From: Deltaproteobacteria bacterium
Lineage (GTDB): Bacteria; Desulfobacterota; Binatia; UTPRO1
NCBI GenBank assembly: GCA_020852955.1
Contig: JADYZW010000047.1
Span: 24,436-88,435, forward strand
Direction of reading: 5' to 3'
DNA: 64,000 bases
Below are positions 1 to 48,882 of this stretch, piece by piece. Each line of letters starts with the position of its first letter. Position 1 is the stretch's first letter. Made by a program: the position numbers and the translations under genes. The notes under the pieces were generated by a model that saw only the letters and a list, made by a program, of their open reading frames with translations, did not search any database and was not told the DNA's origin.

Positions 1-1
1 C

Positions 2-11711: not shown

Positions 11712-11767
11712 GGTCCGCCTCGACTCGACTCCTCTCTCCGCAGCCTGCGGGGACCGGCCGATGATCG

Positions 11768-15887: not shown

Positions 15888-15900
15888 GTCCGTCGCGCGT

Positions 15901-17916: not shown

Positions 17917-18888
17917 GTGGTCGATCTCGGGCAGATCACCCTCACCCAGATGCGCTACGCCGTGGCGGTCGAGACGACGCGGAACTTCCGGGAAGCCGCC
18001 GCGCGCTGTCACGTGTCGCAGTCGGGCCTCAGCATGCAGCTCCGGAAGCTCGAAGATCTCCTCGGGATCGTGCTCTTCGACCGCGGCAAGAAGCCGCTCC
18101 TCGTCACCTCCGACGGCGCGACGGCGCTCGCCCAGATGCGAGCGGTCCTGCGGGAGACCGAGCGGCTCGGCCAGGTCGTCGCCGAGGGCGAGGAGCCCGC
18201 GGGACCCTTCCGGCTGGGCGTCATCCCGACGCTCTCCCCGACCGTCCTGCCGTTGTTTCTCGGACGGTTCGCCGCCGCGCACCCCCGCGTCGAGCTCGTC
18301 ATCGAGGAGCTCAAGACGGAGGAGGTCATCGCGCGCCTGCGCGCCGACACGCTCGACGCCGGCCTCGTCGCGACGCCGCTCCGGGCCCTGGGACTCCGTG
18401 AGGAGACCCTCGGCCGCGAGCGCATGCTCGCCTATCTGCCGCCGGGCGACCCGCTCCTCCGCAAGAAGGTCGTCACCCAGGCGGCGCTCAGCGTGCGCGA
18501 CCTCTGGATCATGTCGGAAGGCCACTGCTTCCGGAGCCAGGTCCTGTCCTACTGCGGGACCGAGCCGCGCCCGCACCCCTCGCGCATCCACTTCGAGAGC
18601 GGCAGCTTCCAGACGCTCGTGCGGCTCGTCGACGAAGGACTCGGCGCCACCGTGCTGCCGGAACTGGTCGTGGACGGACTCCCGGCCACGCGCCGTCGCC
18701 GGCAGGTGCGCCCGCTGGTCGCCCCGACGCCGGTCCGCGAGATCGGGCTCGTCACCGCCCGGAGCCACCTGCGGCGGCGCGTCACCGACGCGCTCATGGC
18801 GGCGATCCGGCACGGGCTCGATCAGGCGCTGCCGCCCGCGGCGCGCAGCGCCGTCGTGCTGGATCCATTGGCGCCGCCGGCCGAGTGA
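17917..18888 (+). CDS. oxyR: LysR-family hydrogen-peroxide sensor OxyR
   Basis: It has a LysR HTH (MRYAVAVETTRNFREAAARCHVSQSGLSMQLRKLEDLLG) and the redox pair GHCFRSQVLSYC, with the same C-x8-C spacing as E. coli OxyR C199/C208. It is divergent from ahpC. The GTG start is uncertain. Confidence 0.85.
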   Translation: MVDLGQITLTQMRYAVAVETTRNFREAAARCHVSQSGLSMQLRKLEDLLGIVLFDRGKKPLLVTSDGATALAQMRAVLRETERLGQVVAEGEEPAGPFRLGVIPTLSPTVLPLFLGRFAAAHPRVELVIEELKTEEVIARLRADTLDAGLVATPLRALGLREETLGRERMLAYLPPGDPLLRKKVVTQAALSVRDLWIMSEGHCFRSQVLSYCGTEPRPHPSRIHFESGSFQTLVRLVDEGLGATVLPELVVDGLPATRRRRQVRPLVAPTPVREIGLVTARSHLRRRVTDALMAAIRHGLDQALPPAARSAVVLDPLAPPAE

Positions 18889-18963
18889 CGATCGCGAGCC
18901 GCGCCGGCGCGGCTCGCGCAGCCTTGAGGCGGGCGGTGAAACTCGGCATAGCAGCTCTCGGCG

Positions 18964-24001: not shown

Positions 24002-24037
24002 CCGCGCCCACCCGTTGCGAAACATGAGGAGAAGATC

Positions 24038-24391
24038 GTGGACAAGCACATGTACCCCGAGGCATCGATCGAACTGCACCGCCAGCGCCAGGCGCTCGCA
24101 CCCGAAATCGGGGCCGCGTTCAAGGCGTTCAGCAACGCGGTGTTCGCCGACGGCGCGCTGTCGGCGAAGACGAAGGATCTGATCGCGGTCGCCGTCGCCC
24201 ACGTCACGCAGTGCCCGTATTGCATCCGCGGCCACACCGCGAGCGCGTTGCGCAGGGGCGCGACGCAGCAGGAGATCATGGAGGCCATCTGGGTCGCCGC
24301 CGAGATGCGCGCCGGCGGGGCGTACGCGCATTCGAACCTGGCGCTCGACGCGATGAACCAGTTCGCGGCGAAGACGACCGGCGCCGACTGA
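24038..24391 (+). CDS. Carboxymuconolactone decarboxylase / AhpD-like alkylhydroperoxidase family protein
   Basis: 117 aa with the core motif [14 protein letters not shown] (CxxC-containing AhpD-type helix). Confidence 0.8.
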
Positions 24392-24577: not shown

Positions 24578-26053
24578 TCAGAAGCGGAAGATTGCCTGCA
24601 TCCTGGCGAGCAGGCGGCGCGCCCTGCCCTCGTTGCTTTCCGTCGCCACGCTCTGGCCGCGGCGCTCGCGGAGCTCGCTCTGCCGGGTCGCCAGAATGCG
24701 GCTCACCGCGGCCGCGACGCTCGGCCGGGTCTTGAAGAGGGCCTCGAACCCGGCCCGCGCGACGATCAGGAGCTCCGCGTCGCCCCTGGCGCGGACCGTC
24801 GCCGAGCGCGCCTCTCCCGTGAGGAGCGCCATCTCTCCGAAGAACGCCGGCGCGCGGAGATCGGCGACGTGGGTCTCGTGGCCAGCGGCGCCCCGCGCGA
24901 CGACCTCCACGGTTCCCCGCCGCAGCACGAAGAAGGCGTCACCGGCATCGCCCTCGCGACAGATGACCTCGTCCCGGCCGAACGCGGCCTCCCGGACGTC
25001 CGGCCGCAGCATGCCGAGCGCCGCGTCGTCGAGCTCCGCCAGGAAGTCGACCTGCCGGAGGGCCGCGAGGCGCTGCTCCTGGGCGCGCGCGTCCGGGTCC
25101 CGCTGCGGCGCCGCTTCGTGCAGGTAGACGTTCCGGATCGGGAACGGAATCTCCATGTCGTGGCGGCGAAGCGCGTACCAGAGCCTGCTCATGATCGCGT
25201 CGCGGACCGCGGGCTGACGCGTGTAGTCGCGGATCCAGAACCGGATCCGATACTTGATCGCAGAGTCGCCGTAGTCCACCACCTCCGCCGTCGCCGGCGG
25301 CGTCGCGACGACGTCGGGCACGCCGCGCAGCACCTCGACGATGACCTCCTTCACCTCGTTCGGCGGAATCGCGTACGCGACGCCGACGAAGAGCTCGTCG
25401 CCGATGGCCTCGCCCCGGAAGTTGCGTACGACCTCGCGCGCGAGGAACGCGTTCGGGACGTCGAGGATCTCGAGGTTGCGGGTGACGATCGACGTCGAGC
25501 GCCACCCGATGCCCTGCACCCGGCCGACGTTGCCACCGAAGCCGATCCAGTCGCCCGGCTCGAAGGGCTTCTGCATCTGCAGCGACAGGCCGCTGAAGAC
25601 GTTGCCGAGCGTCTCCTGGAGCGCGAGGCCGATCACCGCGGTCACGATCGCGGAGGTCGTGAGGAGGCCGGAGACGTCGACGTCCACCGAGTGCAGCACC
25701 GCGAGGATGACCACGGCGTAGACCAGGAGCGTCGCGAGGTCGCGGAAGATCGTCGAGAAGTGCGCCTGGCGGCGGCGCATGACGAGGTCGGCGGTCACGG
25801 CGATGCCGCGCACGACCGCGAACGACACGGCGGCGATCGCCAGCACGAACGCGACGTTGGCCGGCCGCGACGCCAGCCACGGCATGACGGCCTCGACGAC
25901 GGTCGCGGCGACGAGGCACCAGAGCGCGCCCCCGAACCGCCGGAAGGCCGGCTGATCCCGCCCGAGCCACCACCCCCCCACCAGGATCAGAGCTCCCGCG
26001 AGCCACAGGGCGGATGTCACGAGCGGTGAGCTGAGCGTCGCAGCGTCCATCAC
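24578..26053 (-). CDS. MscS-family mechanosensitive channel with C-terminal cyclic-nucleotide-binding domain
   Basis: N-terminal TM helices are followed by an MscS beta-domain (FEPGDWIGFGGNVGRVQGIGWRSTSIVTRNLEILDVPN). The C-terminal CNB domain reads FFVLRRGTVEV...FFGEMALLTGEARSATVRA. Confidence 0.85.
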   Translation of the reverse strand: MMDAATLSSPLVTSALWLAGALILVGGWWLGRDQPAFRRFGGALWCLVAATVVEAVMPWLASRPANVAFVLAIAAVSFAVVRGIAVTADLVMRRRQAHFSTIFRDLATLLVYAVVILAVLHSVDVDVSGLLTTSAIVTAVIGLALQETLGNVFSGLSLQMQKPFEPGDWIGFGGNVGRVQGIGWRSTSIVTRNLEILDVPNAFLAREVVRNFRGEAIGDELFVGVAYAIPPNEVKEVIVEVLRGVPDVVATPPATAEVVDYGDSAIKYRIRFWIRDYTRQPAVRDAIMSRLWYALRRHDMEIPFPIRNVYLHEAAPQRDPDARAQEQRLAALRQVDFLAELDDAALGMLRPDVREAAFGRDEVICREGDAGDAFFVLRRGTVEVVARGAAGHETHVADLRAPAFFGEMALLTGEARSATVRARGDAELLIVARAGFEALFKTRPSVAAAVSRILATRQSELRERRGQSVATESNEGRARRLLARMQAIFRF

Positions 26054-26137
26054 GCCTGTCGGGTCGACGGCGCGGCACTATGCAGAAGGCGCCGCGCGCC
26101 TGTCAAATCATCCGCCCGCGTGCTAGCCCTGCGGACC

Positions 26138-27019
26138 ATGGCGGACGCGCCGATCACCGTCATCTTCGCCGACATCAGCGGCAGCACCATGCTCTGCGCG
26201 GTGCGGGGCGACGAGACCGCCTACAAGCTGGTCTCGACCTGCCTGAGCACGCTCGAAGCCGAGGTCGAGCGCTTCAACGGCCGCGTGATCAAGCGGGTCG
26301 GCGACGCCATCCTCGCCATCTTCGACGCTGCCGAGCCGGCGGTGCACGCGGCGCACGCGATGCAGGTCGCGCTTGAGGCCCCCGGCAGCGAGGTCCACGC
26401 CGAGGGCGTCCGCGTCCGGGTCGGCATCGCGACCGGCACAGCCGTCCTCGACGCGGGCGACATCTACGGCGACGTCGTCAACGTCGCCGCCCGACTCACC
26501 TCGCTCGCCGGCGCGGACGAGGTGTTCATGGCCGGCGAGACCTACGAAGGGATCCCGGCGTCGATGAAGGACAACGTCCGCGTCATCGACCAGCTCGCGC
26601 TCCGCGGCCGTCCCGACTGGGTGCTCGTCTACCAGTACCTCTGGAAGCAGGAAGGCGCGACGGTCAGCACGACCGTCCGCCCGCGCGGCTACACGGCGGC
26701 GCTCGAGGTCGCCTACCGCGGCGAGAAGTACGCCCTCGGCCCGTCGCGTCCGAAGCTCACGGTCGGCCGCGATCCCGACAACGACATCAGCATCGACGAG
26801 ACGGTCGTTTCGCGCCATCACTGCGAGGTGGTGCTGCGCGGCGACAAGTTCCTGCTGGTCGATCGCAGCACGAACGGCACCTGGGTGCTGACCGACGGCG
26901 GCGACACGTTCCGCGTGACCCGCGAGGAGATCACCCTCGCCGGCAGCGGCCGAATCCTGCCGGGACGTCAGAATCTGGAACCCCTGCGCTATAGAGTCGG
27001 GCCGCAAACCCCGGCGTGA
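26138..27019 (+). CDS. Class III adenylate/guanylate cyclase fused to an FHA domain
   Basis: The cyclase core is ITVIFADISGST...RVIKRVGDAILAIFD...VRVGIATG. The C-terminal FHA is LTVGRDPDNDISIDETVVSRHHCEVVLRGDKFLLVDRSTNGTWV. The start could instead be GTG 26120. Confidence 0.85.
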   Translation: MADAPITVIFADISGSTMLCAVRGDETAYKLVSTCLSTLEAEVERFNGRVIKRVGDAILAIFDAAEPAVHAAHAMQVALEAPGSEVHAEGVRVRVGIATGTAVLDAGDIYGDVVNVAARLTSLAGADEVFMAGETYEGIPASMKDNVRVIDQLALRGRPDWVLVYQYLWKQEGATVSTTVRPRGYTAALEVAYRGEKYALGPSRPKLTVGRDPDNDISIDETVVSRHHCEVVLRGDKFLLVDRSTNGTWVLTDGGDTFRVTREEITLAGSGRILPGRQNLEPLRYRVGPQTPA

Positions 27020-27094
27020 TCCCGGCCGCGTCACGCCCGCTTCGCGAACCCGCGTTGCGCGAACGTGGGTCGATATGGGACAACGGTGGAGTTC

Positions 27095-27799
27095 ATGGTG
27101 GTCGTGGGTGACGTGCTGTCGGATCGCGGGCTCCGCCGCGAGCTGAACGAGGACGCGTACGCGTACGAGCCCGCGCTCGATCTCTTCCTGGTCGCGGACG
27201 GCATGGGCGGCCACGCCGCGGGCGAGATCGCGAGCCGCACGGCCGCCGAGACGATCACGACCAAGCTCCAGGAGCTCCTGGCCGACGACGATCTGACCCC
27301 GTTCCGCGACGCCGACGGCAAGCCCTGCGTCGGAGCCCGCCGGCTGGTGATCGCGGTCGAATGCGCCAACGACGCCATCTTCCGGACGGCCGCGAGCAAC
27401 CCGAGCCAGCGCGGCATGGGAACCACGGTCGCCGCCCTGCACTTCGCCGACGGGTTCGCGAACCTCTGCCACGTCGGCGACAGCCGCATCTACCGCATCC
27501 GCAACGGCGCCATCGAGCGCCTCACGGAGGACCACGCGATCGCGGCGAACGTCCTCTCCCGCGCGCTCGGCGCCGAGCCGATGGTCGAGGCGAGCTGGCG
27601 GGTCGAGCCGGTTCGTCCCGGCGAGTGCTTCGTCCTCTGCACCGACGGCGTCCATGGCCAGGTGAAGGACGAGGAGATGCTCGAGATCGTCGAGCGCAAC
27701 GGCGACGATTTCGGCGCCGCCTGCCGCGAGCTGATCGCCCTCGCCAACGACCGCGGCGGCCGCGACAACTCGACCGCCCTCGTCGTCGGCGTCCGCTGA
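27095..27799 (+). CDS. PP2C-family Ser/Thr protein phosphatase
   Basis: Motifs SDRGLRRELNEDAY, FLVADGMGGHAAGEIAS, LCTDGV and GGRDNSTALVV. The start could instead be GTG 27065. Confidence 0.88.
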   Translation: MVVVGDVLSDRGLRRELNEDAYAYEPALDLFLVADGMGGHAAGEIASRTAAETITTKLQELLADDDLTPFRDADGKPCVGARRLVIAVECANDAIFRTAASNPSQRGMGTTVAALHFADGFANLCHVGDSRIYRIRNGAIERLTEDHAIAANVLSRALGAEPMVEASWRVEPVRPGECFVLCTDGVHGQVKDEEMLEIVERNGDDFGAACRELIALANDRGGRDNSTALVVGVR

Positions 27800-27823: not shown

Positions 27824-29155
27824 CTACCTCGTGGGCGCCCGAGCGCGCGGCGCCTCTCTGCCGAAGATCGCCTCGATGGTGATCTCCTTGCGCCGAGCAT
27901 CCCGCAGCACATGGTCCTTGCTGGTGTCGTGGTACAGGTGGCAGAGCATGCAGCTCGTGCCCGCCGACCGCGTCTCGCCGTCGATGTGGCAGCGCTGGCA
28001 GACGTCCTTCATCGGGAGGTTCACGTCGGCGGTCTCGGCGCTCTCGCGCACGTCGGGATGGCAGTGCTCGCACTTCAGGAGGTCGTGCGCCCGGTGCGAG
28101 AACTCGCCCCGTACGAGCCAGCGCGTCGGGATCATGGTCGGCTCGATCTCGGGGAGATCCCCCGGCGCGTGCGTGCCCTCCTCGTCGTGGCACAAGAAAC
28201 AGTACTTGTTGGCGTCGAGGAGCGACGAGGCGCCGTCGCCGAGGTTCGGGTCGAGTGGCTGATAGAGCTTGGCCTCGGCCTTGGCGAGTGCGCTCTTCGG
28301 GTTGGTCGGGTCGATAAAGGCGGCCAGCGAGACCGAGGCGTCGAGCGGGTCGCGGCGGACGCGGCCCGGGAGGCCCGGATCGGTCGAGCCGAAGATGCCG
28401 TCGGGGTTGTTCACGGCCGCGAAGAGAAGCTTCGCCTTCAGATCCTCGCGCACGACGTCGGGCGCCTCGTGCACCGCCTCGACCGACGAGTCCGGACCGA
28501 GCCCCGACTGCGCATGGCACTTCTTGCAATGCCGCTCGAAATCGATCGGCAGCATCAGCGCGCCGTCCTTCGCGGGCACGTGGCACTCGACGCACGAGAG
28601 CGTGTCGTCGGGATCGATCTTGGTGCTCGACAGATGGATCTCGTGATCGAAGCGGATCGCGGCTTCGTCGCGACGCCCGGCGCGGAGCGCCCCGAACTCC
28701 GGGTGGTCGGCGAAGGTCCGGACCGAACGCCGGATCTCGGGCTGCTCGCGCGTCGACGCAAGCTCGCCGTGGCACTCGACGCAGCTCGCGTTCGCGACGG
28801 CGAGGAACACGCCGGTGGCTCGATGCTCGACGTGACACGCCGCGCAGTCCGGCGTCTCCACCTCGGACTTCGCGTGCGTACGGTCGGTATGACAGCCGAG
28901 ACACGCCTCGGTCGGAACCCCGGCGTACGCGGCATGGCAGGTTTCGCAGCGGTCGCCGAAGCTCGCGTGCCCCTGCGACACGGGTCCCGGCAGGTACTGG
29001 CGCTGCTTCGTGCCGGCGTGGAGCCCCCACCACGCGAGGCCGCCGATCGCGACGAACAGCACCCCCACGAGCCAGTACCAGCGCCGGAAGAAGTCGGGAC
29101 GCGGGAAGAGGTCGAAGCGGAGGCGTTTCGCGAGGTCTTTGCTGTTCCGGACCAC
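27824..29155 (-). CDS. Membrane-anchored decahaem c-type cytochrome (class III/c3-like)
   Basis: One N-terminal TM helix (WYWLVGVLFVAIGGLAWWGL) followed by ten CxxCH motifs: CETCH, CLGCH, CAACH, CVECH, CVECH, CKKCH, CFLCH, CEHCH, CQRCH, CMLCH. Confidence 0.85.
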   Translation of the reverse strand: MVRNSKDLAKRLRFDLFPRPDFFRRWYWLVGVLFVAIGGLAWWGLHAGTKQRQYLPGPVSQGHASFGDRCETCHAAYAGVPTEACLGCHTDRTHAKSEVETPDCAACHVEHRATGVFLAVANASCVECHGELASTREQPEIRRSVRTFADHPEFGALRAGRRDEAAIRFDHEIHLSSTKIDPDDTLSCVECHVPAKDGALMLPIDFERHCKKCHAQSGLGPDSSVEAVHEAPDVVREDLKAKLLFAAVNNPDGIFGSTDPGLPGRVRRDPLDASVSLAAFIDPTNPKSALAKAEAKLYQPLDPNLGDGASSLLDANKYCFLCHDEEGTHAPGDLPEIEPTMIPTRWLVRGEFSHRAHDLLKCEHCHPDVRESAETADVNLPMKDVCQRCHIDGETRSAGTSCMLCHLYHDTSKDHVLRDARRKEITIEAIFGREAPRARAPTR

Positions 29156-29167: not shown

Positions 29168-30076
29168 TCAGTACTTGAGCGCCATGACGATGTGGAACGC
29201 CGCGAGCACGAAGAGCGCGAACGAGAGCGGCGCGTGGACGAAGAGCCAACCGTGCAGCACGTCGTGCAGGCGGCGCTGCACCGCGAGCTGGTGTGACTCC
29301 TCGCAGATGGCCGCGAGGCGCTCGAGCTTCGGGGCCCACTCCCCGGGCGCCCGCACGACGAGGGTGCGGATGTCGGGCGGGTTGGTGCGCGTGCGGGCGT
29401 CGCGCAGGAGGTACGGGCGGATCTCGCGTAGGTAAACGTCCCTGAGCAGCGCGGCCTCGGGCACGGGATCAGTCACCGGGGGCTTCCGCGCCACGGCCTT
29501 CCAGTTGCCCGGGCGCGTCTGCAGGGCGGCCTGCTCGGCGGCGAGCCGGGCCTGCTCCTCGGCGGCCTCGGGGACGACGCCGGCCAGGCTCGCGACGAGC
29601 TCGTACGCGTCGGTCGCGAGCCCCTCGCGCACGTGGTCCATCTGACCGACGAGCGTCTCGAGCGGCACGCGCTCGGTCATGATCCCCGGCAGGTACTGCT
29701 GCAGCGCCAGCCCGAAGAGGCCGCTCACCGTAACGACCGCGAACAGCGCCATGAGCGTCGTCGTGAGGGCGCCGCCGAGCCGGAGGCCGGCGTGGAAGAG
29801 GATCAGCGGCACGGCGAGGAGGCCGAGCCAGACGTGCATCTGCATCCAGACGCGCGCCGGCCCGATCCGCCACGTGCGAACCTTCTTCCGCCCCGCGAGG
29901 AGGCCGGCGAGCAGCATCGCGAGCGTCCCGAGGACGCCGTACGCGAGCCCGGGCCAGCTGCCTCCCGACGCACCGTACGGGCTCGCCGCTACGTAGAGGC
30001 GGTAGCTCACCGCGCCGGCGATCGTCGCGACGATCGTGAACGCGAGCCAGCCGCGGTGGTCCCTGTTGAGCCTCAT
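29168..30076 (-). CDS. Five-TM membrane protein with two H-x13-H pairs (putative dihaem b-type cytochrome)
   Basis: Start re-called at ATG 30076, overlapping the upstream stop (ATGA). TM3 reads HVWLGLLAVPLILFH and TM5 reads HAPLSFALFVLAAFH. A helical soluble insert of about 140 aa lies between TM4 and TM5. Confidence 0.7.
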   Translation of the reverse strand: MRLNRDHRGWLAFTIVATIAGAVSYRLYVAASPYGASGGSWPGLAYGVLGTLAMLLAGLLAGRKKVRTWRIGPARVWMQMHVWLGLLAVPLILFHAGLRLGGALTTTLMALFAVVTVSGLFGLALQQYLPGIMTERVPLETLVGQMDHVREGLATDAYELVASLAGVVPEAAEEQARLAAEQAALQTRPGNWKAVARKPPVTDPVPEAALLRDVYLREIRPYLLRDARTRTNPPDIRTLVVRAPGEWAPKLERLAAICEESHQLAVQRRLHDVLHGWLFVHAPLSFALFVLAAFHIVMALKY

Positions 30077-31941
30077 CGCAGATCGGAGGGCGCGAGAAAC
30101 TCGCCAGGAGCGACCCGGATCGCGGCGTCGTGGGGACACGCGTAGACGCAGTTCGGGCCGTCGTAGCCGGCGCAGAGGTCGCAGACCGTGGCGCGCAGCG
30201 ACACGCCCTCGCGCGGGGGCGGCGGCCGCTTCAGCTCGGAGAGCTCGACCATGTTGATGTTCCCGAAGGGACACTGGTTGGCGCAGCGCTCGCAGCCGAT
30301 GCACCAGTCCTCGATCTTGATCTCGAGCGAATCCTCGCGGCGGATCGAGCCGACCGGGCAGCCGACCATGCACTTCGGGTCGGTGCAGGAGCGGCAGGCC
30401 ATGGTGACGAGGTACCGGCCGATGCGCGGCCCGTCGCGGGTAAAGCGCGCCACCCCGTCGTGGGCGTCGGCGCAGGCGCGCACGCACTCGTCGCAGCGCG
30501 TACAGCGTTCGAGATCTATGAGCAGGACGTTCTGCGAGTTGTAGAGGTTGAGCTCGACGGTCTCCTCGAGCATCGCCTGCTCGTTCGCCGAGCGGCTGAA
30601 GGCGGCCGTCTCGAGCGCGCGCCCAGCCCGCGTCGCGGCCGCCAGCGCCGCGGCATTGGCCTCCGCGAGGCGGCCGAGCGCCTCGGCCGGGACGCGGACC
30701 ACCTCGAAGCTGTCGAGTCCGGAGGCGCGCGCGACCCGCACCGCCGCAGGCGCGTCGACCGCGGTGACGTCCTCGCGTCCGATCTCGAAGACGTACTCGA
30801 CGACGCCGATGTGATCGCCCTCGGCGAGGATGGCCTCGCGGATGCGCTCGCCGTTCAGAAGCGTGTGATTCGCGCTGTCGAGATCGACGATCCAGAGCTC
30901 GCCGTCCCGCTCCTCGACGCGGCAATGGCGACGGCCGATCGCACGGCTCTCCTTCGGCACCAGCATGTCGCAGGACTCGCTGCGACCGATCGTGATGGGC
31001 TTGGTGAGCGCCAGCTCCCGGAAGAGAGTCGGGTGCGACGCGCAGCGCAGGACCAGCCTGGTCCGCGGACGCGCCGGCATGAGCGCCTCGAAGCCGAAGG
31101 CTCCGCCGCGACCGAGATAGGTGAAGACGAACTCCCCGCCGGCCTTCGTCTGCGACATCTTGATGGTGCCGGCACGCACGAGATACAGCGCGTCGGCCGG
31201 CGTGTCCTCCGCGTAGACGACGCCGTCCGAAACCTCGTCGGAGTCGGGCGTGAGGAGCGTGCTCACCGCCGCGAGCGCCTCGATCTGCGAGGCGCTCAGC
31301 TCCGCCAGGAGCGCGCTCTGATGCAGGGTGCTGCGGATGGCGTGCGCCTCGTAGGCCTCGTCGATGGCGTCGCCGGCGCCGCGAATCGTGTCGAGCACCG
31401 AGCGCAGCATCTCGAGCGCGACGCACCGGGTCTCGGCGCGCACCGTCGCCTCGCGCGGGTAGAAATTCACGCAGGTATCGAGCCCGAAGATCTCGCCGGG
31501 ACGGATCGCCGCGGGCCCGAGGCGGCGGTCGTGCGCGAGCGTCGCGTAGCGGCTCACCTCGCCGACCTCGGGACGTCCGGGTGTCCGCTCGGCGCGCCGC
31601 GTACGGCGCCGGAAACCGTCCAAGATCCGGGCGAGCGAGCGCGGCGTACGTCCCTCGACGCTCTTCGCCTCGACCCGCTCGGGAAGGAACGCGGTCGCGG
31701 CGCCCTCGACGAGGAGAAACGCGGTCGAGCCGTAGGCGCCGGCCTCGCAGATGACCTCGCCGGGCTCGTACTCGCGCCGTACGACGGCCTTGATGCCGGG
31801 CTCGCCGGCGTCCGGCGCGGCCCCGAGCAGCGTCGGCAGCTTCAGCTTCGCGCGCTTGCTGCTCTTGAAGAAGTCGAGCTCGGCGACCTCTTCGAGTGAG
31901 AGCCACTGGCCGTCGAGGCCATCGGCGTGTCGTCGTGTCAC
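30073..31941 (-). CDS. Cytoplasmic polyferredoxin (NrfC/DmsB-like 4x[4Fe-4S]) fused to two cNMP-binding-like domains and an FHA domain
   Basis: Start re-called at GTG 31941 (gagggtgag RBS), because the upstream part of the track ORF overlaps hldD in another frame. Domains are CNB1 (GEIFGLD...REATVRAETRCVALEM), CNB2 (LYLVRAGTIKM...GGAFGFEAL) and FHA (ITIGRSESCDMLV...RRHCRVEERDGELWIVDLDSANHTLLNG). The Cys clusters are CTRCDECVRAC, CRSCTDPKCMVGCP, CIGCERCANQCP and CDLC...CVYACP. No signal or Tat motif. Confidence 0.8.
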   Translation of the reverse strand: MTRRHADGLDGQWLSLEEVAELDFFKSSKRAKLKLPTLLGAAPDAGEPGIKAVVRREYEPGEVICEAGAYGSTAFLLVEGAATAFLPERVEAKSVEGRTPRSLARILDGFRRRTRRAERTPGRPEVGEVSRYATLAHDRRLGPAAIRPGEIFGLDTCVNFYPREATVRAETRCVALEMLRSVLDTIRGAGDAIDEAYEAHAIRSTLHQSALLAELSASQIEALAAVSTLLTPDSDEVSDGVVYAEDTPADALYLVRAGTIKMSQTKAGGEFVFTYLGRGGAFGFEALMPARPRTRLVLRCASHPTLFRELALTKPITIGRSESCDMLVPKESRAIGRRHCRVEERDGELWIVDLDSANHTLLNGERIREAILAEGDHIGVVEYVFEIGREDVTAVDAPAAVRVARASGLDSFEVVRVPAEALGRLAEANAAALAAATRAGRALETAAFSRSANEQAMLEETVELNLYNSQNVLLIDLERCTRCDECVRACADAHDGVARFTRDGPRIGRYLVTMACRSCTDPKCMVGCPVGSIRREDSLEIKIEDWCIGCERCANQCPFGNINMVELSELKRPPPPREGVSLRATVCDLCAGYDGPNCVYACPHDAAIRVAPGEFLAPSDLR

Positions 31942-32036
31942 CCGCTCACCCTCGCTTCCCAGCCGGACCGAAAAGCCGGTCGCTCTTAGCAGGAAGGCGC
32001 GAGCCAGGGCAACGATTCCGTCGGGGCGGGGCGGCG

Positions 32037-42123: not shown

Positions 42124-43842
42124 TCAGAAGACCAGCACCACTTCGGTGCCGACCTGATAGAGCGTGTTGCTCTCCGTAATGTCCGTGAGCCCCCCGAACG
42201 GCTGGAGGATCGCCCCGAAGCCCTTCACGATGACGTTGTTGTTGAGGAAGGGCCGGTACTCGACGCCAAGGCTCAGGTCGATGCCGATGTCCTGGCGAAC
42301 GTCGGGCTGCTTCAGCAGGATCTGGAGCGGCTCGGTGTCGACGAACCGGAGGTAGGTGGCGTTGCCGATCAGGCTCACCTTCTGGGTGAGATCGGCCGTC
42401 GCGCCGACGTTCACCATCAGGATGCCGGGATTCACGAAGTTCGGCTGGCCCTGGGTCTTCGAGCTGCGCAGATCGGGCACGACGCTGTTGCGCTGCATGA
42501 GCGCGACGCCGCCGCGATCGGTGACGCGGATCGATTGGCGCTGCCAGTAGCCGAAGTTGCCGCCCATGATCTGCGGGTTGTCGAGGATCGTGTCGAAGCC
42601 CCGCGCGGTGTCGTCGCGCGGGTCGCTGTCGCCGGACGACCAGAAGACCGACGCCTGGTAGCGCATCCAGTCGCGGTCCATCGAGAGCTCGAGGAACGCC
42701 TGCTGCGCCTCGATGTCCACGTCGCGTCCCGCGATCGGGTTCGACGTGTCGTGACCGAGGGCCTGGTAGAAGGCGTGGCTGACGTTCACCCAGCCGAGGT
42801 GCCCCTCGCCGGTCCACCCGAGGTAGAAGACGTCGAGGTTGTGGGGCCGCGCGATGCCGACGGGATCGGGCCGGACCAGGAAGCCCTGGTTGTCGAAGAC
42901 GAACCCCGCGTCCTTCCCGTCGTCGTTCAGGTAGTGGACGCTGAACTGGGTCGTGTAGCCGAGCTTCAGGAAGTCCTGGATGTAGAGGTTGCCGATCGCG
43001 ATCTGCTGGTCGCGCAGACCGAACGTGTTGAGGTCCGAGTTCGTGTCCTTCTCCGCCGGATAGAAATACGCGAGGTTGTACTGGTAGCGGTTCGAATTGG
43101 CGTTGCCGAAGAACCGGATGCCCTGGTTCACGTCCGAGAAGACGAGGCTCCGGAAGTCGCTGTTGAACGGCTGCCGGCCGATCTTCGTCGAGAGGAAGTC
43201 GTAGTTCACCGAGGTGTCGAGGAGGTGGATCTCGACGAAGGCCTCCTGCAGGGCCGCGTGGGTCGTGAGCCGATCGGTCGCGTCGCGGACGTCGGGATCG
43301 ACGAGACCGTTCTCACCGGTCGCGAGCAGGTTCACGTCGAAGGCGCCCGCGAGGACGATCTGCCATTCGAACGGCTTGAACGACGTCTGGCCCTTCTGCA
43401 GCTCGAATCGCGTCACGAACTTCTGATCGAAAAGGATCGCGTTGCGGTTCCCGAAGAAATCGAAGCTGCCCGGGTCCTCGGTGGACACGCCGCTCGGCGA
43501 CGGCGCGCCTCGGCCCTCGACGCTCGTCTTCGAAATGCCGGTCAGCTTCATGAAGACGTCGTCGCCGAGGATCGGTATGTCGCCCTTGAGCACGTTCTGG
43601 TTGTAGGGATCCCACCAGTGGCCCTTGGTGTTGAGTTGGTAGGGCGGCAGCTCCATCCGCCAGCGATCCTCGAAGAGCTCCGTCGCGGGCGTATCGCTGC
43701 CGACCGCCGGGCTCTCGACCGTGACGCTCGGTCCGCCCCCGGGAGCGTCCTCGGCCCGCGCTGACGGCGCGGCGAGCGCCCACGCGAGCACGGCGGCGCA
43801 GGCGACGAACGGAACGACGTCGTGACGCGCGCGGCGGGCCAT
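42124..43842 (-). CDS. Outer-membrane beta-barrel protein (porin-like partner of the cytochrome)
   Basis: Start re-called at ATG 43842 (MARRARHDVVPFVACAAVLAWALAAPSARA signal peptide). It shows an alternating amphipathic strand pattern, abundant Tyr/Asn/Gly/Asp, and a C-terminal ...YQVGTEVVLVF ending in Phe, as in the OMP beta-signal. Confidence 0.75.
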   Translation of the reverse strand: MARRARHDVVPFVACAAVLAWALAAPSARAEDAPGGGPSVTVESPAVGSDTPATELFEDRWRMELPPYQLNTKGHWWDPYNQNVLKGDIPILGDDVFMKLTGISKTSVEGRGAPSPSGVSTEDPGSFDFFGNRNAILFDQKFVTRFELQKGQTSFKPFEWQIVLAGAFDVNLLATGENGLVDPDVRDATDRLTTHAALQEAFVEIHLLDTSVNYDFLSTKIGRQPFNSDFRSLVFSDVNQGIRFFGNANSNRYQYNLAYFYPAEKDTNSDLNTFGLRDQQIAIGNLYIQDFLKLGYTTQFSVHYLNDDGKDAGFVFDNQGFLVRPDPVGIARPHNLDVFYLGWTGEGHLGWVNVSHAFYQALGHDTSNPIAGRDVDIEAQQAFLELSMDRDWMRYQASVFWSSGDSDPRDDTARGFDTILDNPQIMGGNFGYWQRQSIRVTDRGGVALMQRNSVVPDLRSSKTQGQPNFVNPGILMVNVGATADLTQKVSLIGNATYLRFVDTEPLQILLKQPDVRQDIGIDLSLGVEYRPFLNNNVIVKGFGAILQPFGGLTDITESNTLYQVGTEVVLVF

Positions 43843-44543
43843 CACCAACTCCCCCACAGCCACAGCGCCGCCGCCACCAGCGCCCCGATCGCGAGCACGA
43901 GCCACCGCCGGCCGCCGGGCTTCGCGCCCGTCCCGGCTCCCTCTTCCGCCGCCGGAGCGCCGCGCTCGTCGAGGAAGATCAGCTCGTCGCCTCCGAGCTG
44001 CACTCGCATTTTGTGCGTCAAGGGAACCTCCTCCTTCACCTGTGTGCCGTCCACCAGCACGACCTTCCCGGTGACCGGCGTGAGGTACCAGTGGCCGTCG
44101 CGCACCGTCAGCTGCGCGTGCTCGCGCGACGCCGTCTGCGAATAGAGCCGGAGGTCGCACGAGGGCAGCCGGCCCATCAGATAGTGCGCGCGCTCGAGCG
44201 TGACGATGTCGGAGCGTCCCGGCGGCTGCACGCGCTGGAGGCGCGCCGGCGGCGGCGCCTGCGGCTGGAGGTCGGCGAGCAGGATCGTGTGCTCCGCGAA
44301 GTCGCCGCCCGCGGCCGGAGCCGTCGGCACGATCGTCCCGGGCGTCGCGGACGTCTTCGGCATCGGAGGCGGCGTCGCCGCGAGGCGCGTCGACTCGTCG
44401 AGCGGCGGCGCCGGGCTCGCGGGCGCGGCGGGTGTCGGCGGGGACGGAGGCGACGAGACTTGCGGCGCCCCCGGCAGCTTCGGCGGCGCGCCGCCGATCC
44501 GCGTGTGCTCGTCGAATCCCGTGTCGTCCCCGTCCTTCGCCAT
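43842..44543 (-). CDS. Tail-anchored FHA-domain protein
   Basis: A Pro/Ala-rich disordered N-terminus is followed by an FHA core (YLMGRLPSCDLRLYSQTASREHAQLTVRDGHWYLTPVTGKVVLVDG) and a single C-terminal TM helix (WLVLAIGALVAAALWLWGSW). Its stop overlaps the barrel ATG by 1 nt (TGATG). Confidence 0.8.
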   Translation of the reverse strand: MAKDGDDTGFDEHTRIGGAPPKLPGAPQVSSPPSPPTPAAPASPAPPLDESTRLAATPPPMPKTSATPGTIVPTAPAAGGDFAEHTILLADLQPQAPPPARLQRVQPPGRSDIVTLERAHYLMGRLPSCDLRLYSQTASREHAQLTVRDGHWYLTPVTGKVVLVDGTQVKEEVPLTHKMRVQLGGDELIFLDERGAPAAEEGAGTGAKPGGRRWLVLAIGALVAAALWLWGSW

Positions 44544-46461: not shown

Positions 46462-48882
46462 TCAGGCGGGTGGAATCGTCAACTTCACGGGACCTTTGAT
46501 CTTCGCGACGCACGCCAACCGATACTTCACGGGATTCCAGTCGAGCTGCCGCACCTTTTCGATGGTGGGCCGCTCCATGCCGCCCGGATCGGGCGGCACG
46601 AAGTGCTCGGCGCCCTCGATGATCTCGACCGTGCAGAGGCCGCACTGGCCGATCTTGCACTCCCAATCGAGCGGCTCTTCGTGATGATCGCGCGGCGCGC
46701 CGTCCTTGCCGACCTTGCAATCGGGAAAGCGCGTGACGAGCTCGTGGAAATACGCGTGCAGCAGGTCCTGGTCCGGCGCGACCGGGATCGTGAGCTTGTA
46801 CTTCTCGTAGTCGAGCGCGGCGACGAGCCCGCCCGCGGTGGCGGCGGCGAGCGCGGCCGGAGCGGGTGCGGCCGGAGCGGCCGCGGCAGGCGGCGCGGCG
46901 GCGTGCGGCGCGGCGACGACCACGTCGCTCGGCGCGAGCTTCGATACCGGCGCGAACCGTTCGAAGCGGAACCGCTTGCTCGCGACCCGGAACTCGTCGC
47001 CGTTCGCGAGCCGGGTCGGCGCCGTCAGCTTCACGTACGTGCCGTTCTTGCTCCCGAGATCGAAGATGCCGAGCGCGCCGCCCTCGATCCGCAACTGCGC
47101 GTGGCGCCGGGACAAGCTCAGATCCGCCTTGTCGAGGGACACCGCCTCGACCCGGCCGACGATCATCCCCTTGCCTGGGATCGGATAGGTTTCCCGCTGC
47201 ACGCCCTCGGCGTCGAAGTGGGTGACGGCCCAGCCGTTCCCCTGCTCCACGACCATGAGGATCTGCGCGCCGATCCAGACGAGGTCGTTCGCGACGAGCG
47301 GCCGCCCCTCCTGCCCTTTGGCGCGGAGCCACACGCCGGCCCCGCCGCTCTCGTCCTCGAGCGCGTAGCCGTCGTCCTGGCGGGTCAGGAGCGCGTGCGT
47401 GTCGGCCATGTAGACGTCGTCGGCGCAGGCGATGTCGGGCGTCTTCCTGCCGATCGTGACCTGATCCTTCGTGAGCGGGAACGCCTCTTCCGGCGAGTCG
47501 TCGGGATGGAGGCTCACCAGCTGCGCCGCGCTCGCCGGACGCTTGGCGGCCTCGGCGTGCGACGGCGCCGGCGGCACGACGACCGGCGGCGGCGGAGCGC
47601 TCGGCGCCACGGACGGCGCGCTCGAGGGCGCGGCGGCCGCCGGCTTCGGCGGCGCGGGCGCCGGCGTCGGCGTCGGCGCCACCTCGGACTTCGGCACCTC
47701 CATGCCGGCGCGCAGCGCGATCGCCTCGACCGCCTTCACCGCATCGACCATGGCGGCCTTGATGTTGCGCTTCTCGACGACCTGCTCGTACGAGCCCGCG
47801 TCGTCGAAATCCTTGCAGCGCAGATATTTCGGCCCGCGCGCGTCGCCCACCAGGAACACGCCCGGCAACGACACCTCGCCGTCGTGGTTCACCAGCATCT
47901 GCGGTCGGTTGTTGAGGAGCGGGATCTTGATGCCGCAGCCTTGCAGCAGCTTCACCGGCAGGTCCTCGCCGATGCAGGCCACCACCTGATCCTTGGCGAA
48001 CTCGAGGTGGACGGTCTCACAGGGCCTGCCCGCCGAGATCTTGCGGTCGATCCGCACCGACAGGTACTCGAGCTTGTCGTCGGCGGTGACCACCGCGACG
48101 GGCTCCGAGAACGCGAGATAGCGGACGTTGCCGTTCCCGACGTAGGCGGAGAAGAACACCTCGGAGAGCGCCCGCGACACCTTCGGCATGCCGCCGCCGC
48201 GATACGACCAGTAGATCGCGCTCTGATCCTCGCCCGCGATCTTCGCGCCCGAGATCGCGATCACCGCCTCCGCCGCCGACGTGCCGCCGCCGATCACGAG
48301 CGCGGGCCTCCCGACGTAGTCCTTCGCGTCGTCGAGGCGGAACGCGATGCCGTCGGTGTTGCCGGGGATGTCGAACCGGCGCGGCACGCCCGCGCCGATC
48401 GCGAGGAGGACATTGCGCGCTTGGTAGCGCTCTTCCTCGCCGGTGCGATGGTTCCAGGTCCGGACGCTCCACACGCCCTCGGGCAGCCGGTCGAGCCCCG
48501 TGAACTCGTGGCCGATCTTCGCGGTCAGGCCGTACTCCTTGTACTTGGCCTTCCAGACCTTCACGAGATCGTCCTTGTCGATGTCGTCGAACGCGAGGGC
48601 CGCGAGCATCGGCCCGCCGGCCGGGAACTGGAGCTTGTCGCCGCCGCCGTAGCTCGGAAGGATCTGCTTCTCCTTCGGGTAGTCGCGGATGCGCTTCATC
48701 AGGTCGTCGTAGTCGACGACCAGGCAGGAGAGTCCGAGCTCCTTGCAGCGCACCGCCGCCGCGGTGCCGGCGGGACCGCCGCCCGCGACGAAGACGTCGA
48801 CGACGTCCGGCACGGCAGCCGGCTGGTCGACCTTCAGCGTCCCTCGGCGGGTATAGTCCGCCTCGTCTATCTTGTCGGACAT
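46462..48882 (-). CDS. FAD/NAD(P)-binding oxidoreductase fused to two FHA domains and a plant-type [2Fe-2S] ferredoxin domain
   Basis: Start re-called at ATG 48882 (MSDKIDEADY). FAD fold VDVFVAGGGPAGTAAA, second nucleotide fold PALVIGGGTSAAEA, then GVFLVGDA. After a Pro/Ala linker come FHA1 (VTIGRKTPDIACADDVYMADTHALLTRQDDGYALEDES) and FHA2 (MIVGRVEAVSLDKADLSLSRRHAQLRIEGGALGIFDLGSKNGTYV). The C-terminal CKIGQCGLC...LAC matches the C-x4-C-x2-C...C ferredoxin pattern. No signal peptide. Confidence 0.8.
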   Translation of the reverse strand: MSDKIDEADYTRRGTLKVDQPAAVPDVVDVFVAGGGPAGTAAAVRCKELGLSCLVVDYDDLMKRIRDYPKEKQILPSYGGGDKLQFPAGGPMLAALAFDDIDKDDLVKVWKAKYKEYGLTAKIGHEFTGLDRLPEGVWSVRTWNHRTGEEERYQARNVLLAIGAGVPRRFDIPGNTDGIAFRLDDAKDYVGRPALVIGGGTSAAEAVIAISGAKIAGEDQSAIYWSYRGGGMPKVSRALSEVFFSAYVGNGNVRYLAFSEPVAVVTADDKLEYLSVRIDRKISAGRPCETVHLEFAKDQVVACIGEDLPVKLLQGCGIKIPLLNNRPQMLVNHDGEVSLPGVFLVGDARGPKYLRCKDFDDAGSYEQVVEKRNIKAAMVDAVKAVEAIALRAGMEVPKSEVAPTPTPAPAPPKPAAAAPSSAPSVAPSAPPPPVVVPPAPSHAEAAKRPASAAQLVSLHPDDSPEEAFPLTKDQVTIGRKTPDIACADDVYMADTHALLTRQDDGYALEDESGGAGVWLRAKGQEGRPLVANDLVWIGAQILMVVEQGNGWAVTHFDAEGVQRETYPIPGKGMIVGRVEAVSLDKADLSLSRRHAQLRIEGGALGIFDLGSKNGTYVKLTAPTRLANGDEFRVASKRFRFERFAPVSKLAPSDVVVAAPHAAAPPAAAAPAAPAPAALAAATAGGLVAALDYEKYKLTIPVAPDQDLLHAYFHELVTRFPDCKVGKDGAPRDHHEEPLDWECKIGQCGLCTVEIIEGAEHFVPPDPGGMERPTIEKVRQLDWNPVKYRLACVAKIKGPVKLTIPPA

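What the first reader, a model, noticed from the sequence alone, without database searches (positions are those of the whole stretch)
24578..27799. cNMP / phosphothreonine signalling island abutting the redox module, with no kinase in sight
Seen: a cNMP-binding MscS channel sits on the minus strand. Divergent from it are a class III cyclase fused to FHA and then a PP2C phosphatase. The PP2C stop is 24 nt from the convergent decahaem gene. The window contains five FHA domains in four proteins, three proteins with CNB domains, one cyclase and one PP2C. I found no Hanks-type Ser/Thr kinase among the ORFs.

Established: the FHA + PP2C + STPK triad is the standard bacterial pThr circuit, for example the T6SS threonine-phosphorylation pathway.

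Inference: the cyclase makes the ligand read by the CNB domains of the channel and of the polyferredoxin. PP2C resets pThr marks read by the FHA domains. The cognate kinase would be encoded elsewhere.
Basis: partly seen in the sequence, partly recalled or inferred. Interest (0 to 1): 0.6.

Follow-up and report, generated by a model that had tools for sequence, protein, structure and literature searches.

The report
FHA-fused adenylate cyclase signalling island
In an uncultured Binatia bacterium, a cAMP-making enzyme fused to a phosphothreonine reader sits with its phosphatase and a cAMP-binding channel next to an electron-transfer gene cluster; the 'missing' kinase lies about 46 kb upstream, which suggests, untested, that a membrane kinase controls cAMP output and perhaps electron flow.

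Summary
The genes are a bCNG-type MscS+CNB channel (24578-26050, -), a class III cyclase-FHA fusion (26138-27019, +) and a PP2C (27095-27799, +). The PP2C stop is 24 nt from a convergent decahaem gene. One count is wrong: the window has three CNB domains in two proteins, not three CNB proteins.

All five FHA domains of the 4.4-Mb genome lie within 21 kb of this window. The cyclase keeps every catalytic residue and the Lys/Asp pair that specifies ATP, so it should make cAMP. The PP2C and the channel's CNB cassette are canonical. The polyferredoxin's CNB domains are not.

The kinase is not missing. A 1844-aa receptor-type Hanks kinase with its own PP2C lies about 46 kb upstream on the same contig. 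Its orthologues sit 3-5 kb from the cyclase in sister genera. Across 41 Binatia genomes, 17 of 17 with the cyclase-FHA have a Hanks kinase, against 4 of 24 without it. In 83 loci from many phyla, 44 have a kinase within 5 kb.

A linker threonine (T175) is conserved in 81 of 82 homologues and lies in a disordered stretch of the model. It is a candidate phospho-switch.

Verdict: a new variant of a known kind, supported only in silico.

The parts
24578..26050 (-). [quoted passage not shown] It has about five N-terminal hydrophobic helices. The phosphate-binding cassette reads FFGEMALLTGEARSATV.
   Evidence: Pfam. It aligns to E. coli MscS residues 22-275 and to PKA/PKG CNB domains. Helices. The orthologue is 490 aa. 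It is divergent from the cyclase in 7 of 8 genomes of the genus.
26077..26106 (-). Sigma-70-like promoter match (TTGACA-18-CATAGT) in the 87-nt divergent intergenic region, facing the channel gene.
   Evidence: 1 site found against 0.1 expected in shuffles. This is a consensus match only.
26138..27019 (+). Class III adenylate cyclase (residues 1-167) joined by a disordered linker with conserved T175 to an FHA domain (residues 187-289); 293 aa.
   Evidence: Pfam. Best PDB relatives are Ma1120 and Rv1900c. Catalytic and pThr-binding residues are invariant. AF2 gives two ordered domains (mean pLDDT 86.9) with linker 173-184 below pLDDT 50.
27095..27799 (+). PP2C/PPM Ser/Thr phosphatase, 234 aa (alternative starts at 27065 and 27086). 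It is probably co-transcribed with the cyclase.
   Evidence: PP2C_2 at 70 bits. Best PDB relatives are PppA 6jkv, tPphA and PstP; the motifs NED, DGMGGH, GDSR, TDG and DN are present. It lies directly downstream of the cyclase-FHA in every Binatia locus with sequence there, except L003, L007 (PP2C about 2-3 kb upstream) and G035 (none detected).
27824..29155 (-). Decahaem c-type cytochrome with an N-terminal membrane anchor (PtdG-like), convergent on the PP2C gene.
   Evidence: Pfam. Ten CxxCH motifs and one TM helix.
29168..30076 (-). Integral membrane protein with His pairs on two helices (PtdF-like, ferric-reductase-like).
   Evidence: No Pfam hit. Helices. It lies between the polyferredoxin and decahaem genes wherever they were seen.
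30073..31941 (-). CNB-CNB-FHA fused to a ferredoxin with four [4Fe-4S]-type Cys motifs (PtdE-like), 622 aa. It is a second FHA reader and a possible cAMP receptor.
   Evidence: Pfam. The family alignment A2 shows non-canonical CNB cassettes, an FHA with Gly-Arg and Arg-x-His invariant, and 16 invariant Cys.
43842..44543 (-). Small FHA protein with a C-terminal membrane anchor, 233 aa.
   Evidence: Pfam. TM helix.
46462..48882 (-). Pyridine-nucleotide-disulfide-type flavoenzyme fused to two FHA domains and a [2Fe-2S] ferredoxin, 806 aa.
   Evidence: Pfam. FHA positions.

Best explanation
This is the output half of a phosphothreonine-to-cAMP signalling module.

Proposed sequence of events:
1. 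A receptor-type Hanks kinase (contig C47:4215-9749, outside the window) phosphorylates threonines. It has an N-terminal kinase domain, about 1000 aa of helical repeats, one membrane helix and periplasmic Ig/PKD-like repeats.
2. The FHA domain of the cytoplasmic adenylate cyclase reads these marks. The likely marks include the conserved T175 in the cyclase's own flexible linker and/or sites on the kinase.
3. This changes the activity or placement of the cyclase dimer.
4. The cyclase makes cAMP from ATP.
5. The PP2C encoded directly downstream removes the marks. A second PP2C is encoded with the kinase.
6. The nearest cAMP receptor is the divergently transcribed MscS-type channel, which has a canonical CNB domain.
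7. FHA domains fused to the neighbouring electron-transfer proteins are parallel readers of the same kinase.

Shown by computation: the domain identities, intact catalytic and ligand-binding residues, and conserved linkage and co-occurrence with the kinase. Inferred: who phosphorylates what, the direction of the effect on the cyclase, and which CNB domains bind its cAMP.
For: Cyclase chemistry:
- D12, D56 and N115 are present in 82 of 82 homologues, D108 in 81, K52 in 77 and R119 in 75. The homologues are 32-97% identical.
- Lys/Asp is the ATP-specifying pair (established knowledge of class III cyclases).

FHA domain:
- The pThr-contact residues R211, S225, H228 and N246 are present in 82 of 82.

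Linker threonine:
- T175 is present in 81 of 82 sequences, while neighbouring linker columns are 17-52% conserved. The single exception has a Thr one position away.
- AF2 places T175 in the only disordered segment, 173-184, pLDDT below 50.

Kinase linkage:
- 44 of 83 cyclase-FHA loci have a Hanks kinase within 5 kb, most within 200 bp.
- A gammaproteobacterial group has a cyclase-FHA, PP2C, kinase operon.
- Binatia loci L003 and L007 read PP2C, kinase, 235-aa gene, cyclase-FHA.
- Orthologues of the C47 kinase (847 and 604 bits full length) lie 2.4-4.6 kb from the cyclase in L004 and L002, and about 3-4.5 kb away in G018, G010 and G014.

Phyletic pattern:
- A kinase is present in 17 of 17 genomes with the cyclase-FHA and in 4 of 24 without it. 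Fisher p = 5e-8 by genome and 7e-5 by genus.

Whole-genome inventory: 2 Hanks kinases, 2 PP2Cs and 4 FHA proteins.

The kinase has intact GxGxxG, Lys, HRD, DFG and APE motifs.

cAMP receptors occupy the slot next to the cyclase:
- MscS-CNB in 7 of 8 genomes of this genus.
- CNB-patatin in the sister genus.
- The CNB-FHA polyferredoxin operon in L006.
- An independent MscS-CNB in a Rubrivivax locus, L071.

Precedent: the FHA-GGDEF enzyme DgcB is activated by a phosphopeptide from its own tail (PMC6733907).
Against:
- In this genome the kinase is 41-46 kb from the cyclase, and 43-110 kb in other members of the genus. Operon-level coupling is absent here.
- A second Hanks kinase on contig C60 could equally be the writer.
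- The genome has about 10 other cyclase-domain proteins and 5 other CNB proteins.
- CNB genes are next to the cyclase-FHA in only 3 of the 83 loci of the wide sample (L004, L006, L071). The cyclase-to-channel link therefore rests on the Binatia loci (genera g1 and g3, and L006) plus one betaproteobacterium.
- The residues after T175 do not fit a classical FHA pT+3 preference.
- T175 could serve another role.
Confidence: 0.6

Rival explanations
1. The kinase-FHA-cyclase-PP2C module is real, but its cAMP is a global signal. It would be read by CRP-type regulators or other CNB proteins elsewhere, not specifically by the neighbouring channel or polyferredoxin. The position next to the channel and the redox genes would reflect a variable chromosomal slot.
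For: - The genome has CRP-sized CNB proteins on C65 and C3, and three large CNB proteins elsewhere.
- Only 3 of 83 cyclase-FHA loci have a CNB gene within 10 kb.
- G005 has the cyclase-PP2C pair without the channel.
- The stretch between glucokinase and the haem operon differs even between close relatives.
Against: - Two different CNB effectors, MscS-CNB and CNB-patatin, occupy the same position directly upstream of the cyclase in two Binatia genera.
- An unrelated betaproteobacterial locus also pairs an MscS-CNB with the cyclase.
- The channel's cassette is fully canonical.
Confidence: 0.2
2. The signalling genes and the cytochrome/Fe-S genes are neighbours by accident of insertion. The cyclase-FHA/PP2C pair would have nothing to do with the redox module.
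For: - Loci L085, L086, G005, G008 and G009 have the cyclase-FHA/PP2C pair with no ptd-type gene adjacent.
- Seven relatives have the cyclase-FHA but no polyferredoxin, and two have the polyferredoxin but no cyclase-FHA.
- None of the proteobacterial loci carries ptd-type genes.
Against: - The redox proteins themselves carry three of the genome's five FHA domains. A fourth FHA is on a small protein inside the same cluster.
- 10 of 12 polyferredoxin-bearing relatives have the cyclase-FHA, against 7 of 29 without the polyferredoxin.
- Three different rearrangements keep the two sets adjacent: this window, L006, and L002/G014.
- In G032 a Hanks kinase is embedded directly upstream of the polyferredoxin gene.
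Confidence: 0.12
3. The FHA domain of the cyclase acts without phosphothreonine, for example as a dimerisation or scaffold domain. The PP2C would then serve other substrates.
For: Phospho-independent FHA interactions are known in general (review cited, not read here). The sequence after T175 is not a classical FHA motif.
Against: All canonical phosphate-contact residues are invariant in 82 of 82 sequences despite 32% overall identity. The gene is linked to kinases and PP2Cs across phyla.
Confidence: 0.05

Closest known systems
Bdellovibrio DgcB, an FHA-GGDEF diguanylate cyclase (PMC6733907)
   Same: A nucleotide-cyclase catalytic domain is fused to a consensus FHA domain. Activation is by a phosphopeptide from a flexible part of the same protein. 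The kinase is not encoded in the protein itself.
   Different: DgcB has FHA at the N-terminus, a GGDEF domain and c-di-GMP as product. Here a class III cyclase is N-terminal, FHA is C-terminal and cAMP is the predicted product. The candidate phospho-site (T175) lies in the inter-domain linker and has not been shown to be phosphorylated.
FHA / Hanks kinase / PP2C triads: PpkA-PppA-Fha1 of the Pseudomonas T6SS; PknB/PknG-PstP-GarA/OdhI; PknF with the two-FHA ABC transporter Rv1747 (PMC3138270)
   Same: The three component types are the same. The PP2C here is most similar among solved structures to PppA, tPphA and PstP. As in Rv1747, FHA domains are fused to the regulated machinery.
   Different: No T6SS gene is present in the window. 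The output is a second-messenger cyclase.
bCNG channels: MscS-like channels with a C-terminal CNB domain (Caldwell et al. 2010 and Malcolm et al. 2012, as cited in PMC13591265)
   Same: It has the MscS pore, beta and alpha-beta domains followed by a canonical CNB domain.
   Different: The family was described mostly from cyanobacteria, and its physiological role and the effect of cAMP are unknown. Here the channel gene is paired divergently with a specific adenylate cyclase.
Minimal class III adenylate cyclases Ma1120 (4wp3) and the Rv1900c cyclase domain (1ybt)
   Same: These are the best solved relatives of the catalytic domain (E = 5e-14). The compact core of about 165 aa and the catalytic residues are the same.
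   Different: Neither carries an FHA domain.
Synechocystis Cya1, an FHA-bearing adenylate cyclase (recalled from memory; no paper in the library confirmed it)
   Same: FHA is combined with a class III cyclase in one polypeptide.
   Different: As I recall it, the domain order is the opposite (FHA N-terminal). The two sequences were not compared here.
ptdABCDEFG putative porin-cytochrome cluster (Elbon et al., bioRxiv 10.1101/2023.11.21.568154)
   Same: The neighbouring genes fit the published descriptions of PtdE (CNB protein with 4Fe-4S clusters), PtdF (ferric-reductase-like membrane protein) and PtdG (decahaem).
   Different: That paper does not mention FHA domains, kinases, phosphatases or cyclases (0 occurrences). 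The match here is by described architecture only, not by sequence comparison.

Membership tests
Class III nucleotidyl cyclase (Pfam PF00211), adenylate-specific | Domain match above the curated cut-off | tested here: met
   61.4 bits against a cut-off of 21.9. PDB relatives are Ma1120 and Rv1900c.
Class III nucleotidyl cyclase (Pfam PF00211), adenylate-specific | Two metal-binding Asp and the transition-state Asn and Arg | tested here: met
   D12, D56, N115 and R119 are present. They occur in 82, 82, 82 and 75 of 82 homologues respectively.
Class III nucleotidyl cyclase (Pfam PF00211), adenylate-specific | Lys/Asp substrate-specifying pair for ATP (Glu/Cys or Glu/Ser would indicate GTP) | tested here: met
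   K52 (77 of 82) and D108 (81 of 82).
Class III nucleotidyl cyclase (Pfam PF00211), adenylate-specific | Head-to-tail homodimer with measured cAMP synthesis | not testable with these tools
   Only a monomer model was made.
FHA domain (PF00498), phosphothreonine-binding type | Domain match plus the conserved Gly-Arg, Ser-x-x-His and Asn | tested here: met
   51.9 bits against 20.7. G210, R211, S225, H228 and N246 are present in 82 of 82.
PPM/PP2C phosphatase | Domain match plus the metal-binding Asp motifs | tested here: met
   PP2C_2 at 70.1 bits against 24. In the alignment to PppA and tPphA, NED, DGMGGH, GDSR, TDG and DN are all present.
bCNG (MscS-like channel with C-terminal CNB) | MscS pore-lining helix, beta and alpha-beta domains followed by a CNB domain | tested here: met
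   The three MS_channel Pfam domains plus cNMP_binding at 76 bits. It aligns to MscS residues 22-275.
bCNG (MscS-like channel with C-terminal CNB) | Phosphate-binding cassette with Gly-Glu and Arg-Ser/Thr-Ala | tested here: met
   The cassette reads FFGEMALLTGEARSATV.
bCNG (MscS-like channel with C-terminal CNB) | Channel activity modulated by a cyclic nucleotide | not testable with these tools
   The review states that the role of the nucleotide is unknown even for the founding members.
Canonical cAMP-binding CNB domains in the polyferredoxin (30073-31941) | Conserved Glu and Arg of the phosphate-binding cassette | tested here: not met
   CNB1 has R162 invariant, but the Glu position is Ile/Leu followed by an invariant Asp. 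CNB2 has an invariant Glu shifted by one position and no conserved Arg.
FHA / Hanks kinase / PP2C triad encoded as one locus | Hanks-type kinase gene in the same gene cluster | tested here: not met
   There is no Pkinase in the window. The nearest is C47:4215-9749, about 41-46 kb upstream. The feature is met in sister genera and many other phyla.
FHA / Hanks kinase / PP2C triad encoded as one locus | Kinase, phosphatase and FHA reader co-occur in the genome | tested here: met
   The genome has 2 kinases, 2 PP2Cs and 4 FHA proteins. A kinase is present in 17 of 17 genomes with the cyclase-FHA against 4 of 24 without.
T6SS threonine-phosphorylation pathway | Type VI secretion structural genes next to the triad | tested here: not met
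   No T6SS family appears among the Pfam hits of 47 of the 53 called window genes; 6 short calls (44-156 aa) were not scanned.
ptdABCDEFG cluster (Elbon et al.) | PtdE/F/G architectures in a row: CNB plus 4Fe-4S protein, ferric-reductase-like membrane protein, decahaem | tested here: inconclusive
   The architectures match the published description. No Ptd sequence was available for a direct comparison.

The most novel reading that the evidence does not exclude
A single receptor Hanks kinase gates a whole trans-envelope electron conduit (the ptd-type cluster) post-translationally. Phosphothreonine marks would recruit or release the FHA domains that are built into the NAD(P)H-flavin reductase and the cytoplasmic Fe-S subunit. 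The FHA-cyclase would convert the same marks into a local cAMP pulse. That pulse would be read by the adjacent channel and by the atypical CNB domains of the Fe-S subunit. This would be phospho-control of respiratory or extracellular electron flow in bacteria, using a kinase-to-cAMP relay that has not been described.
Probability: 0.3. Interest if true: 0.8.

Novelty: new variant of a known kind. Interest (0 to 1): 0.55.

Why it matters
- Hanks kinases and cAMP are usually treated as separate bacterial signalling systems. A widespread small protein family wires an FHA reader directly to an adenylate cyclase: at least 544 loci were found among species-representative genomes. It is encoded next to a kinase in about half of the loci examined. 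It would be a direct relay between the two systems, and it is easy to test in vitro.
- In Binatia the module is attached to the uncharacterised ptd-type multihaem cluster, whose own subunits carry FHA and CNB domains. The signalling genes therefore give a handle on when that conduit is switched on.
- The divergent pairing with a bCNG-type channel offers a natural cyclase partner for a channel family whose ligand response and physiological role are still unknown.

Tried and rejected
Readings rejected:
- **Partner-switching (SpoIIE/RsbU-type) role for the PP2C.** The best matches are the Hanks-kinase partners PppA, tPphA and PstP. No STAS or anti-sigma gene is nearby.
- **T6SS threonine-phosphorylation pathway.** No T6SS genes are in the window.
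- **A third CNB protein in the window.** Neither Pfam at E <= 0.01 nor my own CNB profile at E <= 10 finds one.
- **A kinase hidden in the window's unannotated proteins.** These are 302, 422, 577 and 784 aa long and have no Pfam hit, and no match to my kinase profile.
- **General adjacency of the cyclase-FHA to CNB genes.** Only 3 of 83 loci show it, so I do not claim it outside Binatia.
- **General adjacency to ptd-type genes outside Binatia.** None was seen.

Searches and tools that led nowhere:
- Literature searches for a characterised cyclase-FHA protein returned nothing relevant. The Cya1 comparison therefore rests on memory.
- A whole-genome search with the full 1844-aa kinase failed. 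I used its first 395 residues instead.
- A look-up of earlier notes by the cyclase sequence found nothing.

Full report
**What is there**

The window is about 70% G+C. It is part of contig C47 (window = C47:24436-88435) of a 4.43-Mb, 67-contig assembly that is about 90% complete. The closest public relatives are MAGs labelled Candidatus Binatia.

I called genes with a codon log-odds model trained on the genome and annotated them with Pfam. The finding's three genes are real.
- An MscS-family channel with a C-terminal cNMP-binding domain lies at 24578-26050 (-).
- A class III cyclase fused to an FHA domain lies at 26138-27019 (+).
- A PP2C lies at 27095-27799 (+).

Orthologue lengths of 490, 293 and 234 aa fix the likely starts at ATG 26050, 26138 and 27095.

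The PP2C stop is 24 nt from the stop of a convergent cytochrome gene with exactly ten CxxCH motifs. The 87-nt divergent intergenic region holds one sigma-70-like match facing the channel gene.

**Checking the counts**

|---|---|---|
| Five FHA domains in four proteins | correct | 10, 11, 15 |
| One cyclase, one PP2C | correct | 38 |
| No Hanks kinase in the window | correct | 6, 38 |
| Three proteins with CNB domains | not reproduced: three domains in two proteins | 16, 71 |

A stronger fact emerged. The five FHA domains are the only ones detectable in the whole assembly (my own profile agrees). They span 20.7 kb (window 26759-47460). By my arithmetic, four genes landing that close by chance in 4.43 Mb has a probability near 4e-7.

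The genome-wide phosphothreonine inventory is small: two strong Hanks kinases, two PP2Cs and four FHA proteins.

**Are the parts functional?**

*Cyclase.* Its best solved relatives are the minimal mycobacterial cyclases Ma1120 and Rv1900c.
- In 21 metagenomic homologues, and then in 82 non-identical homologues at 32-97% identity, the two metal-binding Asp (D12, D56) and the Asn (N115) are invariant.
- The Arg (R119) is present in 75 of 82.
- The substrate-specifying pair is Lys52 (77 of 82) and Asp108 (81 of 82). In class III cyclases this pair specifies ATP.
- The enzyme should therefore make cAMP.

*FHA domain.* It keeps Gly-Arg, Ser-Arg-x-His and Ser-x-Asn-Gly in 82 of 82 sequences.

*PP2C.* It is most similar to the kinase-partner phosphatases PppA, tPphA and PstP, and has all metal-binding motifs.

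*Channel.* It aligns over the whole MscS core. Its CNB cassette, FFGEMALLTGEARSATV, is canonical. It fits the described bCNG family, whose ligand response and role remain unknown.

*Polyferredoxin.* In an 18-member family alignment, CNB1 keeps an invariant Arg but replaces the Glu. CNB2 has no conserved Arg.

**A conserved threonine in a disordered linker**

Between the two domains, Thr175 is present in 81 of 82 sequences. The single exception has a Thr one position away. Neighbouring linker columns are only 17-52% conserved.

An AlphaFold2 model has mean pLDDT 86.9 and two well-ordered domains. Its only segment below pLDDT 50 is residues 173-184. A near-invariant Thr in a flexible linker next to a consensus FHA domain is what one expects of a phospho-acceptor read in cis or across the dimer.

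There is precedent. The FHA-GGDEF enzyme DgcB is activated by a phosphopeptide from its own tail (PMC6733907). GarA/OdhI works in a similar way (my knowledge). For T175 this is inference only; phosphorylation has not been shown.

**Where the kinase is**

The nearest Hanks kinase is C47:4215-9749, 41-46 kb upstream of the cyclase and outside the window.
- It has an N-terminal kinase domain with intact GxGxxG, Lys, HRD, DFG and APE motifs.
- About 1000 aa of Ala/Glu/Arg-rich helical repeats follow.
- It then has one membrane helix (residues 1348-1366) and periplasmic Ig/PKD-like repeats.
- It is preceded, with a 4-nt overlap, by a second PP2C that is 39% identical to the one in the window.

Comparative evidence ties this kinase to the cyclase.

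1. In Binatia relatives, full-length orthologues of this kinase (847 and 604 bits) lie 2.4-4.6 kb from the cyclase-FHA/PP2C pair (L004, L002). In genomes G018, G010 and G014 the distance is about 3-4.5 kb. In L003 and L007 the order is PP2C, kinase, 235-aa gene, cyclase-FHA.
2. In locus L085 the order is kinase-type PP2C, TAL/PGI, G6PD, 6PGL, 6PGD, glucokinase, FHA protein, cyclase-FHA, PP2C, haem biosynthesis. In L085 the gene beside the PP2C is cut off by the contig end. L086 has the same TAL/PGI-to-haem gene order but a histidine kinase, not a PP2C, upstream of TAL/PGI.
3. The present genome has the same backbone. Here G6PD (C47:14347-15945) is separated from 6PGL (window 18964) by about 27 kb of unrelated genes. 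Further genes are inserted around the cyclase.
4. Within the genus the separation between kinase and cyclase is 43-110 kb. 'No kinase in sight' is thus a rearrangement specific to this genus.
5. Of 83 cyclase-FHA loci from Binatia and from Beta- and Gammaproteobacteria, 44 have a Hanks kinase within 5 kb, most within 200 bp. A gammaproteobacterial group has the operon cyclase-FHA, PP2C, kinase. With a handful of kinases per genome, I estimate the chance expectation at about 1%.
6. Among 41 Binatia genomes, all 17 with the cyclase-FHA have a Hanks kinase matching at E <= 1e-30. Only 4 of 24 without it do. Fisher p = 5e-8 by genome and 7e-5 when collapsed to genera.

**Relation to the redox genes**

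The neighbouring genes fit the published description of PtdE/F/G of the putative ptdABCDEFG porin-cytochrome cluster. That paper does not mention FHA domains, kinases, phosphatases or cyclases.

Synteny between the signalling pair and these genes is frequent but not obligatory.
- In 6 of 8 genomes of the genus the decahaem, membrane and polyferredoxin genes converge on the PP2C.
- In L006 the same three genes lie directly upstream of the cyclase on the same strand.
- In L002/G014 the flavoenzyme-FHA-ferredoxin, HbpS-like, 577-aa and LVIVD-cytochrome genes abut the cyclase.
- L085, L086, G005, G008 and G009 have the pair without adjacent redox genes.
- Of 12 relatives with the polyferredoxin, 10 have the cyclase-FHA, against 7 of 29 without it.
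- In G032, which lacks the cyclase-FHA, a Hanks kinase sits directly upstream of the polyferredoxin gene.

I conclude that the kinase/FHA layer belongs functionally with the redox cluster in Binatia. The cyclase-FHA/PP2C pair is an autonomous module that is often, but not always, attached to it.

**Who reads the cAMP**

Support for local reading:
- The channel is divergent from the cyclase in 7 of 8 genomes of the genus.
- In the sister genus the same slot holds a CNB-patatin phospholipase.
- A Rubrivivax locus independently pairs an MscS-CNB with the cyclase.

Against a general rule:
- Only 3 of the 83 loci have a CNB gene nearby.
- This genome has about ten other cyclase-domain proteins and five other CNB proteins.

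**Verdict**

This is a kinase-linked, FHA-regulated adenylate cyclase with its eraser phosphatase and a probable cAMP-binding channel. Its kinase is identifiable 46 kb away. Its link to the polyferredoxin's CNB domains is doubtful.

Every component type is known. The following have not, as far as I could find, been described or tested:
- the specific cyclase(N)-FHA(C) family;
- its conserved linker threonine;
- its systematic pairing with Hanks kinases;
- its attachment to the ptd-type cluster.

I rate it a new variant of a known kind, of moderate interest, and entirely in silico.

Noticed in passing
window 31942-32036, compared with L084:13402-15621: A relative whose cyclase is 92% identical carries a 739-aa molybdopterin oxidoreductase gene between the epimerase and the polyferredoxin gene. 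Here only 95 nt separate those two genes. The Fe-S/membrane/decahaem trio may therefore serve a molybdoenzyme in some strains.
   Followed up: no
window 1-18900 (C47:16015-43398): About 27 kb of unrelated genes splits the pentose-phosphate operon between G6PD (C47:14347-15945) and 6PGL (window 18964). The insert includes a beta-propeller, a NosD-like beta-helix protein, TetR, nitronate monooxygenase, a luciferase-like enzyme, acyl-CoA dehydrogenase, AhpC and LysR. The operon is contiguous in L085 and L086.
   Followed up: partly
window 22457-24391: A Rieske + pyridine-nucleotide-disulfide oxidoreductase fusion and a CMD-family gene lie between glucokinase and the channel gene. In the relative G008, whose cyclase is 97% identical, glucokinase is followed directly by the channel gene. 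This slot is hypervariable.
   Followed up: partly
window 31390-31563 (CNB1 of the polyferredoxin): The CNB1 cassette has invariant Cys156 and Asn158, and an invariant Asp in place of the usual Glu, across an 18-member family. This suggests a ligand other than cAMP, or a redox-sensitive site.
   Followed up: partly
L004:7805-9889 (also G018 and G010): In the sister genus a CNB-patatin-like phospholipase gene sits directly upstream of the cyclase-FHA on the same strand, in the position held here by the MscS-CNB channel.
   Followed up: partly
genome contig C60:~2870-6835 (outside the window): The only other strong Hanks kinase of the genome is a Pkinase + degenerate cyclase-like + AAA_16 (STAND-type) protein. 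It is an alternative writer for the FHA readers.
   Followed up: no
genome C47:112873-115728, C59:63633-66854, C30:54785-56524 (outside the window): Three other large proteins end in CNB domains very similar to the channel's (E = 1e-43 to 1e-49 against my CNB profile). They are further candidate receptors for the same cAMP.
   Followed up: no
L002:8282-9976, L085:8782-9996, L086:8664-10004: In several Binatia relatives a 404-564-aa FHA protein is encoded immediately upstream of the cyclase-FHA on the same strand. This genome has no orthologue of it.
   Followed up: partly
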